64,000 nt of DNA. It comes from the human T2T-CHM13v2.0 reference genome, Homo sapiens. Below are positions 4,211-59,612 of this stretch, one piece after another (position 1 is the first letter of the stretch; every line of letters starts with the position of its first letter). The position numbers were made by a program, and so were the translations under genes. The notes under the pieces are model-generated. The model ran no database searches. It was not told the origin of the DNA and worked only from the letters and a program-made list of their open reading frames with translations. Where the stretch lies: NCBI RefSeq assembly GCF_009914755.1, contig NC_060944.1; one strand, 5' to 3'.

Positions 4211-4921
4211 CTGAGCTGTAGAATGGATGCAGTTCCTCAGAGTGTTGCTTCAACTTTGGCACCTATAGACAGCTCCACTTTTTCATGCTAGGCCTTTCAA
4301 TTCCAAAGCCTTCCAGATGTCATTTCTAAACTGGCAAGATTTCCACCCTTTCAAGCTGTGTGCATTCTCTTTTGGAAATCATGAAAACATCACAGATGGC
4401 CTTATGATATAAATAATTAGTGAAGAAGACAATTATTGCTCATCTGTGATGAATCAAGCTTCTTTTTATTTAGTCAGCAACAAGCTGGACATAGTCATTA
4501 CATAGCCCTAGGGTCTACGCAGCCACACAGATTATAAGTTTGTCCTGTATTTTTGCCTCATGGGGTCATGTGCTAAATATTTATATGAAATGTCACTATC
4601 ATATACTCTCAGACTATCAATTTCTATGTTAATATTTTTCTTGGCAATTGCTCTGCAGGCAAAACTACAGCCTATATGTGTAATAGCTTCACATGTCAGT
4701 ACTTTTCTTAATGTCTCATAAAAAGAAATTGTTCCTCTGACAATTTAACTAAGATACCCAAAAGAGCCAAACAAGTCTTTCAACATCCTCTTTAATGACT
4801 TCTTGTTGTTTTTATTCAGTTTTATGAAAACATCTAATTTCATCACTCTCTCTGAGTTTTATTGATTTAAGCTGGCATGATTACCCTTTATAACTCAATA
4901 AGTTGGCTTCAGAAGTACACA

Positions 4922-5267
4922 CAGTCATATGTCACTTAACAACAAGAATACATTCTGCAAAATATATAGTTAGGCAGTTTCATCATTGTGTGAACATCAT
5001 AAAATGTACTTACATAAACCTGGATGTATAACCTATGACACACCTAGGCTATATGGTAGAGTATATTGCTCTTAGGCTACAAACCTGTGCAACATGTTAC
5101 GTACTGAATACTGTAGGCAATTGTAACATAATGGTAAGCATTTGTGTATCTAAACATATCCAAATATAGAAAAGGTACAGTAAGAACACCGTATTATAAT
5201 CTTATGGGACCACTATCATATGTGTGGTCCATTGTTGACCTAAACTTCATTATGCAGTTCATGACTA
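4922..5267 (+). mobile_element. Tigger3a (MER7A/Golem-type) non-autonomous DNA transposon
   Basis: TIRs cagtcatatgtcacttaac ... attatgcagttcatgacta, TA 3' flank; internal ctaggctatatggta, ggctacaaacctgt. Confidence 0.88.
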
Positions 5268-5547
5268 TACATAAAGATTTTCTTAGGTAGGATGATCAAT
5301 AGAGAGCAAACTGGACTAGGAGTCAGAGAATCCAGCTATCTTTTTGTATCTGCTTTAAATTGTTTAACGACCAAGACAAAATTACCAAACTTTTAACTTT
5401 GTTTAATCAACTTTTGAGAAAATGATTTTTACATTATGATTTCCAACATCTACTTTAGTTCCAAAGTTTTCTGACTCTGGGAGCTTTAATCATACCTCAT
5501 TGGACCAAATACACATCTGCCTTTGAAAAAAGATTACTAATTAGCAT

Positions 5548-54237: not shown

Positions 54238-54271
54238 CAACCTTCTTTTTTTTTTTCATTCCCAGTAAGTC

Positions 54272-54281
54272 TTTATTTATT
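54272..54281 (-). terminator. Polyadenylation signal(s) AATAAA of the retrocopied mRNA
   Basis: Minus strand reads gaataaataaagacttactgggaatg followed by the A-run (54246-54256). Confidence 0.85.
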
Positions 54282-55223
54282 CACTGTATTTTCCCAGGGA
54301 AAGGAGAAGGGAAGGGAAGAGTCAGCATGTGTTACAAAATGATTAGAAAATGGGAAAGGAAGTACCCAGTACAGCAAATTCAACCACAAATAAATACACC
54401 CCAGTGATGGGGTCACCAAAGCCCAAAGGGGCTCAGTCTCCTGCAGTTCAGGAATGAGGGGAAGGGATCAGGAAAAGAACAGACAACCTCAGGCTTTCCT
54501 ACCCTCCCTCCCAATAAACGCAAAATTTCACACAAAGCTTTGGTTTCTAGCAGCAAACATGGAGTTACATTCATTTGTCTCCTATTAAACAATCTTGCGG
54601 CCACTTTGACAAAAGTTTCTTGCACTTGCATAACAATTCCTGAGTGCCTTGGATATACATTCGTATTCCCTTTCTTGGCCTCCTGAACCCACTTTCCACA
54701 TGGAAGGCCCCCAGTTGCTTCTCTCTACTTTAGGATTAAAGATTAACTAGGTTTGATCCATCCAAAGTACAGCAGTGTCTTAAGAGTTTGGCATGGATAC
54801 ATCAGGAAATGGTCTTGACTCAGGAAGTTGGGAACAAGCGATGGAGGGTTCCTAGCTTCTTCAGGATGTTTGCATAAATCATTTAAGAGTTGTGGAGACA
54901 CTCCGAGCATTAAATGTGTATGTGTCTGGGTGTGTAGGTTTTCTTTTGGGGATGAACAGAAAACAGGGCAGGGTAGGAGACAAGTTTTTAGGACAGAAGA
55001 TGTGGTCTAATAGGTAATGGGGAAGAGGAACACAAAATAAAGGATGGTTCAAGATCTCCACTTTAATAAGAGGGCACCCCAAACTAATGTTTGAGATCTT
55101 TTTGCCTGGCGCAGAACCTTCTGTCAAAGATGGTCTCAATACAAAAAGAAGTTATAAGTAAACAAGTAAACAAGAAGTAAACAAAACCCCAAAAGAACAT
55201 GGAAAAAGACCAATGCATTGTAT

Positions 55224-55409
55224 TTACATAAAGTAGGCCCTCTAGCAATCACCAACTGGGTGAAGTCCTACAAAGCCCAGACAAATACAATAACTGGGGG
55301 AGTGGGGAGGGCAGCATTACATAAAGTAGGCCCCCTAGCGATCACCAACTCGGTGAAGTCCTACAAAGCCCAGACAAATACAATAACTGGGGGAGTGGGG
55401 AGGGCAGCA
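55224..55409 (+). repeat. 93-bp direct tandem duplication (2 copies, ~3 mismatches)
   Basis: ttacataaagtaggccc...gggagggcagca at 55224-55316 and 55317-55409; seen as a 31-aa repeat in ORF 55218-55433. Confidence 0.95.
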
Positions 55410-55612
55410 TTTAGGGAAGATAAGAACCCATGATCAGACACACACCACCCAGTGCGGTCCATTTCATTTGTCCCGTTTCAACACAGTGAGGTGGGTTTGT
55501 GGTGATCTCAGAGCATGTAAACGAAACCCTTTTCTCCTTTAGCTACCGATACTATTAATCACTACTGTAGCAAGCAGGGCATGGGCTCCAGGCACCACAA
55601 AGAAGCCCTCGC

Positions 55613-55814
55613 ATCAGGAGATCGAGACCTTCTTAGCTAACATGGTGAAACCTCGTTTCTATTAAAAAGAATACAAAAAATTAGCCGGGCGTGGTGGCAG
55701 GCGCCTGTAGTCCCAGCTACCCGGAAGGCAGAGCTTGCAGTGAGCCGAGATTGCGCCACTGCACTCCAGCCTGGGCGACAGAGCAAGACTCTGTCTCAAA
55801 AAAAAAAAAAAAAA
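55613..55814 (+). mobile_element. 5'-truncated AluY with internal deletion, inserted in retrocopy 3'UTR
   Basis: Starts at tcaggagatcgagacc; Y-type gctaac and gagcttgcag; ~30-nt deletion after cccagctac; A-tail; TSD aaagaagccctcgc (55599-55612) / aaagaagcactcgc (55815-55828). Confidence 0.9.
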
Positions 55815-56287
55815 AAAGAAGCACTCGCTTATGGGTTTCCCTGGAACCCCCAAATTTTGAAAGGTTAAGGATTTTAGACCTTGCTTCATATACCCAGCCC
55901 TCGACAGCACAGGATAAGTACAGAGGTATTGGTCTTTAAACTTATCCCTACCAACTCACATTTTTTTCCAAACACACATACCCTCTGGAACATGGTAGAC
56001 CTAATCTAGTGAAGAATGGATCTGGGATGTAAAGCATGTCCTGTGCCCTAGGATTAGACAAGCCTCACCTAATCTTGGCTTCCTCTCTGGGCCTTTCACC
56101 TGGCCCAACCTCTCCTAATCTCTCTGCACCACCATTTCCTGTTTAGACTAATTTCCAATCTTCCAGTAGTTGGCTATCGAGTCATGAGGCAACCCAGTTA
56201 AAACCTAGTCTCCCATAAAACATTTTCAAGGCAGAGGGGGTTTCAAGAGGATATTATGGCAGAAAAGCCAGCTCTCATTAGCAAAAA

Positions 56288-56295
56288 TGAGGTAG
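56288..56295 (-). promoter_or_regulatory. let-7 8mer target site (CTACCTCA) retained from LIN28A 3'UTR
   Basis: Plus strand TGAGGTAGT equals let-7 nt 1-9; minus strand gaactacctca. Confidence 0.75.
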
Positions 56296-56892
56296 TTCAA
56301 TAGGCCAGGCACTCCAAATAGTTGCTCTCCCTGGTTCCAAAAATGACAAAAAGTATTTCTGCTGTGCAAACCTGGAGTTGCTGCCGGCTTGTTCCTGAGA
56401 CCGCTCATGTACCTGAGAACACAGTGCAGGAAATGAGGGCCTTAGGTTAAAATATACAAAAATACAAAAGCAGAATATTTACATTAAGGAAAAAAACATT
56501 AAAATGCACAAGATGACGTCAGTCGCACACAGCTAATGCAGTTGGCATCCTGCAGAAAGTGAGACCTGAGGTGCTGTATCCAAGGGCGCAAATAAATAAA
56601 ATCACATTGGCCCAGAATGGGGTGGGGGTGAGCATAGGAGCAGCAGGTTTGCAGCTGTTCTCCCAAACACCCTTCTTGCCATCATCTGTAGCCATTGCTT
56701 GGGAGAGTTCCCAGGACCCTAACCCAAAAGTGGGTATAAGGATACAAGATGTGAAAACAAAACAAAAACACTGCCTTATTCCTGAGAGATTCCCTCCCAC
56801 AGAATGTAGTGGCTTGGCTCCATGGATCTGGTCTTGTACTTAATCACTTCACTCTGGCGTGGGAATTATTACTATATATTCTTCTTTAAAAG

Positions 56893-57425
56893 TGTCGGAG
56901 GTGTTTGAACCAGAGTAACTCCATCTTGAATAGGGGCTGGCTAAAATAAGGCTGGGACCTGTTGCGCTGCATTCCCAAGAGGTTAAGGCATTCTTAGCCA
57001 CAGGATGAGATACAACATACAATTCATAAAGACCTTGCTGATAAAACAGGTTGCAGTAAAGAAGCCGGCCATGTACCAGCAAAACCAAGATGGCGATGAG
57101 AGTGACCTCTGGTTGTCCTCACAGCTACACTCCCACCAGCACCATGACAGTTTACAAATGCCACGCCAACGTCAGGAAGTTACCCTGTATGGTCTAAAAA
57201 GGGGAGGCAGGAATAATCCACCCCTCGTTTAGCATATAATCAAGAAACGACCATAAAAACGGGCAACCAGTAGCCCTCAGGGGCTGCTCTGCCTATGGAG
57301 CAGCCATTCGTTATTCCTTTCCTTTCTTAATAAACGTGCTTTCACGGACTCACCCTGAATTCTTTCTTGCGCCATGTCCAAGAACCTTCTCTTAGGGTCT
57401 GGATCGGGACCTCTTTCCGGTAACA
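56893..57425 (+). mobile_element. MER41A solo LTR (ERV1) inserted in the retrocopy 3'UTR, antisense to LIN28A
   Basis: Begins TGTCGGAGGTGTTTGAACCAGAG, ends GGGACCTCTTTCCGGTAACA; internal ATAAAGACCTTGCTGATAAAACAGG and AATAAA ~57329; lacks the tandem TTCCNGGAA block of MER41B. Flanks aaag/aagg form an imperfect 4-bp TSD; LIN28A 3'UTR continues on both sides. Confidence 0.9.
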
Positions 57426-57715
57426 AAGGAAAACAACTTCCCTATCTAGGCCATTTTCAAAAGCTGGAAATTCCCGCTGCCATCCCCCACCGCCCCCAGA
57501 AGCCCTCACTTGCATATGGACAGAGCATGGTTGGAGTTCCTTTGCCTCACCTTTTCCCCCCACCTAGAGGGAAGAAGGGGCGATGGTGTGAACCCCAGCC
57601 TGAGATACATGGCAGTGCCAACTGGCCCAAATGCACCCTATTCCCACTTTCTCCACTTTGCCTGTTCCATGAAACTTCCTGCTCTTGGGAAACAGGAAGC
57701 TTCACCCTTTGTGGC

Positions 57716-58335
57716 TCAATTCTTGGAACCCCAGAATCAGGGCAGGGCTGTGGATTTCTTCTTCTTCCCTTGGAGAGTAGGTTGGCTTGCCCTGTGCGCT
57801 AGGGGCCTGCTGGGCCTTCAGCAGACACGAGGCTACCACATGGCTGATGCTCTGGCAGAAGTGGCACTTCTTGGGCTGGGGTGGCAGCTTGCATTCCTTA
57901 GCATGATGGTCTAGACCTCCACAGTTGTAGTACCCGTCTCCTTTTGATGTGCGTTTCTGCATGTTCTTCTCCTTTGGCCGCCTCTCACTCCCAATGCAGA
58001 ACACCCCACCAGGTCCGGTGACACAGGTAGTTTCCACACCCTTGGGTGACTCCTCCACTGTTTCGTCCTCCTTCAGGCTCCAGGAAGCCCTCCGTGTGCA
58101 GCTTACTCTGGTACACAAAGACGTCCACTGGGGGATCGAGCGCGACCCTGGCTAGGGCGGTCATGGACAGGAAGACAAACCCCAAGCCCACGTTGAACCG
58201 CTTACAGATGCCCGCATCGTGCAGCAGCTGAGGCTTGTCCGCCGGCGGGGCCGTGTCCTCCGGCACCTCTTTAGGCGCCTCCTCTGCCACCTTAGCGCAG
58301 CCACCTGCTAACTGCTGGTTGGACACGGAGCCCAG
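57716..58335 (-). pseudogene. Disabled LIN28A CDS remnant
   Basis: Start ATG->CTG (plus cag 58333-58335); +1 frameshift near 58083 (ttc ctgg agc vs ttc cgg agc); in-frame loss of ~4 codons (FTFK); W46->R and H75->Y in the cold-shock domain; first Cys of knuckle 1 ->Y (GDGYYNC); second +1 shift just before the original TGA (plus tca 57716-57718). Confidence 0.93.
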
Positions 58336-58400
58336 GGTCGTCAGCTGAGCCCGCAGCCCTGGGTCCCTGGTTGGGCGGCTGCTGGCCCCAGAGAAGTCCG
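58121..58400. other. CpG-rich segment (5' end of the retrocopy)
   Basis: About 21 CpG in 280 bp by manual count; GC-rich, in a window that is otherwise CpG-depleted. Confidence 0.75.
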
Positions 58401-59612
58401 AAGGCTTCAACCTTCTTCACTACCTATGTTTTCAACGGCTGTGTAAAAGAATGCATATACTTCACCTTTAAAGGGTTTACTTGGTGGAAATAAAAAAGGA
58501 ATTCATAAATTTTAAAGTTTCCGCTTACATAACAGCAGCTAGATCTGGTAGGGAGTCGGAGCATGACAATTCCATGGTATGCCTGCTGCAGAGAGGGCCC
58601 AGGGTAAGGTACCGCTTCCCCACCTGGGAACACACAGAAAGATTTCTAGGGCAGTATAATTATTTCTAGAATGAGAAATCATTCCAAGAAAATAAAGAGG
58701 TTGAAAACACCTGTCTGGCTTCCCTTAGGGGAGATCACAGATGGTTAAAACGGGAAGTAGAGAAAGGAAATTATCTATATATATGTGTATATAATCGTTG
58801 GAGAACCTGAAAATATCAGGAGATAGATGAGTAGATTCATTTCATAGATGCAGCCTTTAGCGGGAGGGCACTTCACTAAAAGAAGCCCCAGCCCCATGTT
58901 CTCCAAACATGCATTGGGAAAATAGCATTTGCACAGGGTACTTCTGAAGAAGATCTGTTTTCTCACACTCTTCAAGGAGGCATTTCGAGATTTCAGAAAT
59001 CCTTCTGTGCCTCAGAAGGGAGGGGTGGACTCACAGATGTGTGGCAATGGCCTGAGTATGTAATGAAGAAGCCACAGTGTGCAGACTTAGAGCAGAGGCA
59101 GAAGGGTGGACCCTGAGATATTATCTGTGGATACCTGGAAAGCAAGTCAGAAGGAAAGGCAGGACCAGTCATGCGTCAGCAGTCACCAGTCCAGGGAACA
59201 GAAGAGACACGTCACCAGTGGCAACAGCCATTGATGATCTGAGGACAGTGAACATCTTTATTGGTTCTGTGGAACTTCACAAACCTCCTGCCCTGATGCG
59301 CCATCTCCAGGGAGGGTAAAGAGAGGCTGGAAAAACAAAAAAGGCTGAATTATCCAAAATCAGGAATTTAAGCCAGAAGTAAGTGAAAGTTGGCAACTGG
59401 AAGAATGAGTCCACAGGAGGAATATTAGGACTGTTATAGAATATAAAGTTTATTTTATGTGTAGAACTCATTATCATTTTATATAAATGTATAATCCAAT
59501 GACAAATACCTTCAAATATTTAGCAAACTTGGGTCTAGTTCCATGGAAAAGTTGAGCATTTATGAAAGTTAAGAAATATTTAAGAAATTAAAAATCTTTC
59601 AAGTGTTTCTTC

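What the first reader, a model, noticed from the sequence alone, without database searches (positions are those of the whole stretch)
54761..54820. LIN28A retrocopy preserves the 3'UTR from before the inverted Alu pair: two empty Alu sites
Seen: the minus strand reads continuously gtcaagaccatttcctgatgtatccatgccaaactcttaagacactgctgtactttggatggatc with no Alu. Known, from recall: the human LIN28A 3'UTR has an antisense Alu after ...aagaccatt and a sense Alu after ...gacactgctgta, about 40 nt apart. This IRAlu hairpin has been used as a model for A-to-I editing and nuclear retention. Here each target sequence (accatttc; acactgctgta) occurs once, as expected of pre-insertion sites. Inference: the retrocopy is a fossil of LIN28A mRNA from before this dsRNA regulatory module arose. 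It provides the ancestral UTR and a natural IRAlu-minus control.
Basis: partly seen in the sequence, partly recalled or inferred. Interest (0 to 1): 0.8.

Follow-up and report, generated by a model that had tools for sequence, protein, structure and literature searches.

The report
LIN28A retrocopy predating its inverted Alus
This dead copy of the LIN28A messenger RNA was pasted into chromosome 20 before two Alu elements entered the parent gene's tail, so it keeps the older, hairpin-free version, while two younger copies elsewhere carry the Alus together with scars that look like ancient RNA editing.

Summary
Window 54248-58407 (minus strand) is a full-length LIN28A processed pseudogene with a poly(A) tail and a 10-bp target duplication. 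It reads straight through both places where the parent gene (contig C1) carries an antisense and a sense Alu 46 nt apart (gaps of 315 and 316 bp).

It is not the only such copy. Of 15 other LIN28A-derived loci, 10 span both sites. Eight of those are empty and two (C2 183.75 Mb, C11 47.1 Mb) hold both Alus.

A tree places the window copy as sister to the Alu-bearing clade (support 100). It is therefore the youngest Alu-free fossil and gives the closest older bound on when the hairpin arose.

In the two Alu-bearing retrocopies, polarised non-CpG A>G changes on the mRNA strand are frequent inside the Alus: 22 of 103 and 10 of 103 A sites. The matching T>C counts are 3 of 107 and 1 of 107. Outside the Alus, A>G is 10 of 675 and 0 of 282. 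This is the pattern ADAR hyperediting would leave if edited RNA were copied into DNA. The window copy shows no such asymmetry (11 A>G, 11 T>C).

The kind of thing is known; this instance is neat.

The parts
54248..58407 (-). LIN28A processed pseudogene, full length, 4160 bp including three later insertions or duplications. RefSeq LIN28AP3 annotates only 57535-58405.
   Evidence: Aligns to the parent on C1 exon by exon and without the intron. The LIN28A-like reading frame is split into two pieces in different frames.
58408..58417 (-). 5' copy of the retrocopy's target-site duplication, AAGAAGGTTG
54238..54247 (-). 3' copy of the retrocopy's target-site duplication, AAGAAGGTTG
54248..54256 (-). 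Poly(A) tail, shortly downstream of the AATAAATAAAG signal that the parent shares
54806..54813 (-). Empty site 1: a single copy of ACCATTTC, the target of the parent's antisense Alu
   Evidence: The parent has 315 bp more here.
54768..54781 (-). Empty site 2: a single copy of AAGACACTGCTGTA, the target of the parent's sense Alu
   Evidence: The parent has 316 bp more here.
54768..54813 (-). 46-nt stretch that corresponds to the loop between the two Alus in the parent. It has no stable fold of its own here.
   Evidence: A 160-nt fold around it gives z = +0.60.
56892..57425 (-). Later insertion of a roughly 530-bp high-copy interspersed repeat, LTR-like, flanked by CTTT
   Evidence: Query 983-1516 has dozens of genomic matches at 83-85% identity. 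Junctions are shown.
55602..55823 (-). Later insertion of a 5'-truncated antisense Alu with a GCGAG(T/G)GCTTC target duplication
55225..55410 (-). 93-bp tandem duplication within the UTR-derived part
   Evidence: The unit is found twice, 93 bases apart. The parent matches overlap.

Best explanation
Window 54248-58407 (minus strand) is an L1-made processed copy of LIN28A mRNA. It was inserted before two Alu elements landed, in opposite orientations and 46 nt apart, in the parent 3'UTR. It therefore keeps each target sequence once and cannot form the roughly 246-bp hairpin that the modern mRNA forms. Among at least ten informative LIN28A retrocopies it is the youngest without the Alus, so it gives the closest older bound on the origin of the hairpin. 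The retrocopy at C2 183.75 Mb gives the younger bound. The two retrocopies made after the Alus arrived were copied from mRNAs whose hairpin had been deaminated by ADAR. Reverse transcription read inosine as G and fixed A>G scars in both arms. Shown here: the retrocopy hallmarks, the empty and filled states, the branching order, the hairpin prediction, and the strand-specific A>G excess confined to the Alus. Inferred: that ADAR caused the excess, and the absolute dates.
For: Retrocopy hallmarks are present: no intron, a poly(A) tail and a 10-bp TSD.

Both sites are empty with single targets and no Alu residue. The gaps are 315 and 316 bp.

Census: 15 non-parent loci match the last 536 bp. Ten span both sites, of which 8 are empty and 2 are filled.

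Order: K2P distance to the parent is 0.020 (C11), 0.055 (C2 183.75), 0.087 (window) and 0.106-0.172 for the other seven. Sixteen informative sites put the window copy before C2 183.75, against 3 in conflict. IQ-TREE support is 99 for parent+C11, 100 for that clade plus C2 183.75, and 87 for that clade plus the window copy.

Hairpin: 246 Alu1-Alu2 pairs, MFE -456.4 kcal/mol, z = -36.3 with 0 of 20 shuffles as good. The window counterpart gives z = +0.60.

Scars: polarised non-CpG A>G against T>C inside the Alus is 22/103 against 3/107 for C2 183.75 (p = 2.5e-5) and 10/103 against 1/107 for C11 (p = 0.0045). Outside the Alus, A>G is 10/675 and 0/282. The parent lineage shows 0 A>G inside the Alus. 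The window copy shows 11 A>G and 11 T>C. G is depleted and T enriched at the -1 position of the 32 A>G sites (p = 0.031 and 0.014).
Against: The left flank of the antisense Alu is not a textbook junction. All three filled alleles carry an extra ACCATT.

The window copy and the oldest Alu-bearing copy are close in age (0.087 against 0.055). No copy carries only one Alu, so the order of the two insertions is unknown.

No other primate genome was available, so all dating is internal.

For the scars: the ancestral Alu states come from a majority consensus of only 22 unrelated Alus. Seven A>G sites are shared by the two retrocopies (overlap p = 0.028). These could be editing hot spots, but could in principle be ancestral G later reverted in the parent. 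C11 has an unexplained run of G (6 T>G) at the Alu1 tail, and C2 183.75 has T>C in that tail. No RNA editing data were compared.
Confidence: 0.92

Rival explanations
1. The Alus were already in LIN28A mRNA when the window copy was made, and both were later deleted precisely from the retrocopy by recombination between their target duplications.
For: Precise Alu loss between TSDs is known to occur rarely (established knowledge, not tested here). A single locus alone could not exclude it.
Against: Eight independent retrocopies on different contigs show the same two empty sites. The extra ACCATT of the filled alleles is absent from all four empty copies aligned base by base. The tree places all empty copies outside the filled clade, with support 100.
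Confidence: 0.01
2. The window copy came from an Alu-free allele, or from a transcript variant lacking this stretch, at a time when the Alus were already present or polymorphic in the population.
For: The window copy and the first Alu-bearing copy are close in divergence (0.087 against 0.055), so an overlap in time cannot be strictly excluded.
Against: The junctions are exact pre-insertion sites, not splice junctions. Sixteen derived states shared by the parent and C2 183.75 are missing from the window copy, against 3 in conflict. An internal branch of 0.0126 with support 100 separates them.
Confidence: 0.04
3. The A>G excess in the two Alu-bearing retrocopies is ordinary DNA-level mutation, such as GC-biased gene conversion, transcription-linked asymmetry, CpG effects or wrong polarisation, and not fossil RNA editing.
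For: The ancestral states rest on a small generic Alu consensus. Unpolarised counts include CpG decay in the parent.
Against: Biased conversion would raise T>C as much as A>G, but T>C is 3/107 and 1/107. The flanking UTR of the same copies shows no excess: A>G is 10/675 and 0/282. Sites that create or destroy CpG were excluded. Only sites where the parent equals the consensus were counted. Parent-lineage changes inside the Alus include no A>G. The -1 neighbour bias matches ADAR's known preference (the preference itself is recalled).
Confidence: 0.12

Closest known systems
Processed pseudogenes as fossils of ancestral transcripts, and empty-site (presence/absence) logic for Alu insertions
   Same: An L1-made copy freezes the mRNA as it was. 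A single target copy with no Alu marks the state before insertion.
   Different: Here a series of at least ten dated copies of one gene brackets the birth of a studied regulatory element. The window copy is the last one before it.
LIN28 3'UTR IRAlus, as used in reporters for nuclear retention, STAU1/PKR control and ADAR editing (Chen et al. 2008, cited in PMC4378195; PMC3956526; PMC3409221; passages only)
   Same: The parent gene on C1 carries exactly this inverted pair, which folds into a roughly 246-bp duplex.
   Different: The window sequence lacks the pair. It is a dead, diverged copy on another chromosome with no evidence of function.
A-to-I editing traces fixed in the genome through retrotransposition (Knisbacher and Levanon 2015; only the title was seen, in the reference lists of PMC5850729 and PMC6669771; the content is recalled)
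   Same: A>G clusters in a retrotransposed copy relative to its source.
   Different: Here the edited template is a cellular mRNA whose 3'UTR hairpin is an experimental model. The scars sit in two independent processed pseudogenes outside the window, with an Alu-free sister copy as an internal control.

Membership tests
L1-mediated processed pseudogene | Introns of the parent are absent | tested here: met
   Parent L009 819-1011 and 1762-2303 abut in the window copy at query 477/474. Exons 1-2 were not fetched from the parent.
L1-mediated processed pseudogene | Poly(A) tail at the parent's polyadenylation site | tested here: met
   An A run follows the shared AATAAATAAAG signal, whereas the parent continues with unrelated sequence.
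L1-mediated processed pseudogene | Flanking target-site duplication | tested here: met
   AAGAAGGTTG at 58417-58408 and 54247-54238.
Pre-insertion (empty) Alu site | One target copy in the empty allele, two flanking the Alu in the filled allele, and a gap equal to Alu plus tail plus one target | tested here: met
   Sense Alu: exact, with AAGACACTGCTGTA against a second copy that has one mismatch, and a 316-bp gap. Antisense Alu: ACCATTTC(TT) duplicated, with a 315-bp gap that includes an extra ACCATT shared by all filled alleles.
Pre-insertion (empty) Alu site | No residual Alu sequence and no ragged deletion | tested here: met
   Base-level alignment of four empty copies. Four more are inferred empty from contiguous BLAST coordinates.
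3'UTR inverted-repeat Alu (IRAlu) dsRNA element | Two Alus in opposite orientation in one 3'UTR that pair into a long duplex | tested here: not met
   Met in the parent (246 pairs, z = -36.3). Not met in the window copy, which is the point of the finding.
ADAR hyperediting footprint (in loci L010 and L011, not in the window) | Excess of A>G on the transcribed strand, confined to the dsRNA arms | tested here: met
   22/103 and 10/103 A>G against 3/107 and 1/107 T>C inside the Alus. Flanks show 10/675 and 0/282. The loop shows 0 and 1 changes.
ADAR hyperediting footprint (in loci L010 and L011, not in the window) | 5' neighbour preference, with G disfavoured | tested here: met
   G at -1 in 4 of 32 edited sites against 24 of 71 unedited A sites (p = 0.031). 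T at -1 in 9 of 32 against 6 of 71 (p = 0.014).
ADAR hyperediting footprint (in loci L010 and L011, not in the window) | The same positions are edited in LIN28A RNA today | not testable with these tools
   No RNA-seq data or editing database was at hand. PMC3409221 (passage) says only that Lin28 is edited in hESC.

The most novel reading that the evidence does not exclude
The LIN28A retrocopy series is a time-stamped record of how a dsRNA regulatory module was born and used. The window copy is the last snapshot before the inverted Alus. The two later snapshots carry ADAR scars in both arms, 7 of them at the same positions. On this reading the hairpin was already hyperedited in germline or early-embryo cells tens of millions of years ago, and such edited mRNAs escaped nuclear retention well enough to be picked up by the L1 machinery.
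Probability: 0.7. Interest if true: 0.6.

Novelty: new member of a known kind. Interest (0 to 1): 0.45.

Why it matters
The LIN28 inverted Alus are a standard model for editing, nuclear retention and STAU1/PKR control. Knowing when the pair arose, and having the sequence just before it, gives an evolutionary baseline.

The internal bracket predicts which primates should have the hairpin. The scars in the younger copies, if confirmed, are direct genomic evidence of two things. First, the hairpin was edited in cells that contribute to the germline. Second, edited IRAlu mRNAs remain available for retrotransposition. This fits the report that hESC lack paraspeckles and export LIN28A mRNA (PMC7012776, passage).

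The same test, A>G against T>C inside inverted repeats of retrocopies with older repeat-free copies as controls, could be run genome-wide.

Tried and rejected
Precise deletion, and origin from a spliced or Alu-free variant, were considered and rejected (see the rival explanations).

Order of the two Alu insertions: no copy carries only one Alu, so this stays unresolved.

Five of the 15 loci were uninformative at the sites. C14 96.8 Mb, C2 8.0 Mb and C23 151.15 Mb are truncated downstream of the sites. C1 63.37 Mb and C8 81.29 Mb gave no alignment across the sites at E <= 1e-4.

Alu subfamily naming was not possible because no repeat library was at hand. By recalled diagnostic features both look like AluS types. 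This was not tested.

Absolute dating rests on recalled primate divergence figures only.

Chen et al. 2008, Chen and Carmichael 2009, and Knisbacher and Levanon 2015 are not held, so their content is cited only through other papers or from recall.

The literature searches turned up no paper on LIN28A retrocopies, or on editing scars in processed pseudogenes of IRAlu genes. That covers only the held library. Supplements were not consulted.

Full report
OBSERVATION. On the minus strand the window reads the quoted string without a break from 54819 down to 54755. A search of the window's own genome with the whole retrocopy finds the parent on contig C1 at about 26.26 Mb. The hub names C20 as chr20, so I take contig numbers as chromosome numbers. 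In the parent locus (L009 = C1:26262500-26268500) the matches to the window copy are interrupted twice, between L009 4052 and 4359 and between 4404 and 4707. The interruptions match Alu sequence in opposite orientations. Read base by base, an antisense Alu (T-rich tail first) follows GTCAAGACCATT, and a sense Alu follows AAGACACTGCTGTA.

THE RETROCOPY. The copy spans window 54248-58407 on the minus strand.
- It lacks the parent intron between L009 1011 and 1762.
- It ends in an A run shortly after the AATAAATAAAG signal it shares with the parent, whereas the parent continues with unrelated sequence.
- It is flanked by AAGAAGGTTG at 58417-58408 and 54247-54238.
- Its LIN28A-like reading frame is broken into two pieces in different frames.
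- Three later events interrupt it: a roughly 530-bp high-copy LTR-like repeat (56892-57425, flanked by CTTT), a 5'-truncated antisense Alu with its own target duplication (55602-55823), and a 93-bp tandem duplication (55225-55410).
- RefSeq's LIN28AP3 (57535-58405) covers only the first 871 bp, so the finding lies about 2.7 kb outside the annotated pseudogene.

THE TWO SITES. Relative to the window copy the parent has 315 and 316 extra bases.
- Sense Alu: the gap is exactly Alu plus A-rich tail plus one copy of AAGACACTGCTGTA. The second copy in the parent has one mismatch.
- Antisense Alu: the target ACCATTTC(TT) is duplicated. All three filled alleles also share an extra ACCATT on the left. 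This is a small irregularity of the insertion, or of the time just after it. It is not a sign of deletion in the empty copies.
- No Alu residue is present in the window.

CENSUS. A search with the last 536 bp of the parent UTR finds 15 loci besides the parent. Ten of them span both sites.
- Eight are empty: the window, C5 117.04, C2 203.57, C13 86.58, C1 173.24, C7 151.5, C14 61.13 and C21 30.08. The first four were aligned base by base. The other four were judged from contiguous BLAST coordinates.
- Two hold both Alus: C2 183.75 Mb and C11 47.1 Mb. Both end in poly(A) at the parent's site, and the C2 copy is intronless.
- Five loci are uninformative.

Eight concordant empty sites exclude precise later deletion.

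ORDER AND DATING.
- K2P distance to the parent over non-Alu UTR positions is 0.020 (C11), 0.055 (C2 183.75), 0.087 (window) and 0.106-0.172 for the other seven.
- Sixteen sites show a derived state shared by the parent and C2 183.75 but not the window copy, against 3 sites of the conflicting pattern.
- A maximum-likelihood tree on 1175 columns is a comb: parent+C11 (support 99), plus C2 183.75 (100), plus the window copy (87), then the older copies.

The window copy is therefore the youngest Alu-free fossil. Both Alus entered on the internal branch of length 0.0126 between it and C2 183.75.

Terminal branches are 0.058 (window), 0.040 (C2 183.75) and 0.010 (C11). Lineage-specific counts agree: 106/1801, 109/2602 and 11/1081. 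Against recalled primate divergence figures this suggests, very roughly, 40-55, 30-40 and about 10 million years. That would place the origin of the pair near the time when AluS elements were most active. This is inference, not a tool result.

HAIRPIN. The parent stretch L009 4030-4735 folds with 246 pairs between the two Alus around a 46-nt loop. MFE is -456.4 kcal/mol, against -223 for shuffles, giving z = -36.3 with 0 of 20 shuffles as good. The window counterpart (160 nt) folds no better than shuffles: z = +0.60, with 141 of 200 shuffles as good.

SCARS IN THE YOUNGER COPIES (outside the window). While aligning the filled alleles I saw many A-to-G differences on the mRNA strand. To test this I built a majority consensus from 22 unrelated full-length Alus in the window and the fetched loci. 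I counted a change on a retrocopy lineage only where the parent equals that consensus. I set aside changes that create or destroy CpG.

Copy | A>G inside Alus | T>C inside Alus | Fisher p | A>G outside | T>C outside
C2 183.75 | 22/103 (8 in Alu1, 14 in Alu2) | 3/107 | 2.5e-5 | 10/675 | 6/761
C11 | 10/103 (5 and 5) | 1/107 | 0.0045 | 0/282 | 2/353

The remaining observations:
- The 45 polarisable loop positions show 0 and 1 changes.
- Unpolarised counts point the same way. Inside the Alu bodies A>G, G>A, T>C and C>T are 38, 6, 12, 12 for C2 183.75 and 19, 8, 7, 2 for C11.
- Changes on the parent lineage inside the Alus include no A>G.
- The window copy, which never had the hairpin, shows 11 A>G and 11 T>C over 451 A and 566 T sites.
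- Seven A>G sites are shared by the two independent copies (overlap p = 0.028).
- At the 32 A>G sites, G is depleted and T enriched at -1 (p = 0.031 and 0.014).
- Of these sites, 27 of 32 lie in predicted pairs, against 91 of 103 for all consensus A sites. That is no enrichment.

The simplest reading is that each copy was reverse-transcribed from an ADAR-hyperedited mRNA.

Weak points of this reading:
- the small generic consensus;
- the possibility that shared sites were ancestral G;
- an unexplained G run at the Alu1 tail of C11 (6 T>G);
- T>C in the Alu1 tail of C2 183.75, where a TTCC-like microsatellite has formed;
- no RNA data.

LITERATURE.
- PMC4378195 (passages) uses reporters with IRAlus from the Lin28 3'UTR and credits Chen et al. 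2008.
- PMC3956526 (passages) reports STAU1/PKR control of LIN28 through its 3'UTR IRAlus.
- PMC3409221 (passage) cites Chen et al. for editing of Lin28 in hESC.
- PMC7012776 (passage) says hESC lack paraspeckles, so that LIN28A mRNA reaches the cytoplasm.
- The idea that RNA editing of retroelements becomes fixed in genomes is in print (Knisbacher and Levanon 2015). I saw only the title, in two reference lists, and the paper is not held.
- Searches found nothing on LIN28A retrocopies or on editing scars in processed pseudogenes. That covers the held library only.

VERDICT. The phenomenon, a processed pseudogene older than a transposon insertion in its parent, is ordinary, and this copy is one of eight. 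It gains some value from being the last copy before the Alus. It also serves as the control that makes the A>G scars in the two younger copies readable. Cross-species alignments and RNA editing data, which I could not reach, would settle both the dating and the scars.

Noticed in passing
L010 (C2:183749000-183756000) about 4805-5520, and L011 (C11:47110800-47115500, minus strand) about 1400-2100: The two LIN28A retrocopies that carry both Alus show a strong mRNA-strand A>G excess confined to the Alus (22/103 and 10/103 A sites, against 3/107 and 1/107 T>C). Seven positions are shared. This is probably fossil ADAR hyperediting.
   Followed up: yes
window 57535-58405 against 54248-58407: RefSeq LIN28AP3 annotates only the first 871 bp of a 4160-bp retrocopy. 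The 3'UTR-derived 3.3 kb, including the finding, is unannotated.
   Followed up: yes
window 56892-57425: A roughly 530-bp interspersed repeat inserted into the retrocopy, flanked by CTTT. Dozens of genomic copies match at 83-85% identity. It looks like a solo LTR, but the family was not identified.
   Followed up: partly
window 55602-55823 and 55225-55410: A 5'-truncated antisense Alu with its own 11-bp target duplication, and a 93-bp tandem duplication. Both arose after the retrocopy was made.
   Followed up: partly
L009 4044-4049, and the same place in L010 and L011: All three Alu-bearing alleles have an extra ACCATT just left of the antisense Alu. It is absent from the empty copies. It arose at or soon after the insertion, by an unknown mechanism.
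   Followed up: partly
L011 (minus strand), tail of the antisense Alu: A run of G, interrupted by T, stands where the parent has T and A runs (6 T>G in the count). It is unexplained. It could be an edited A tract or a tail rearrangement.
   Followed up: no
L009, non-Alu 3'UTR: Since the window copy split off, the parent lineage has changed about half as much as the retrocopy (0.029 against 0.058 in the tree). This is consistent with constraint on the LIN28A 3'UTR.
   Followed up: partly
L012 (C13:86581500-86586500) and L017 (C14:61123500-61129500): The C13 copy is rearranged, with segments in opposite orientation. The C14 61.13 Mb locus holds two pieces of the UTR end on opposite strands.
   Followed up: no
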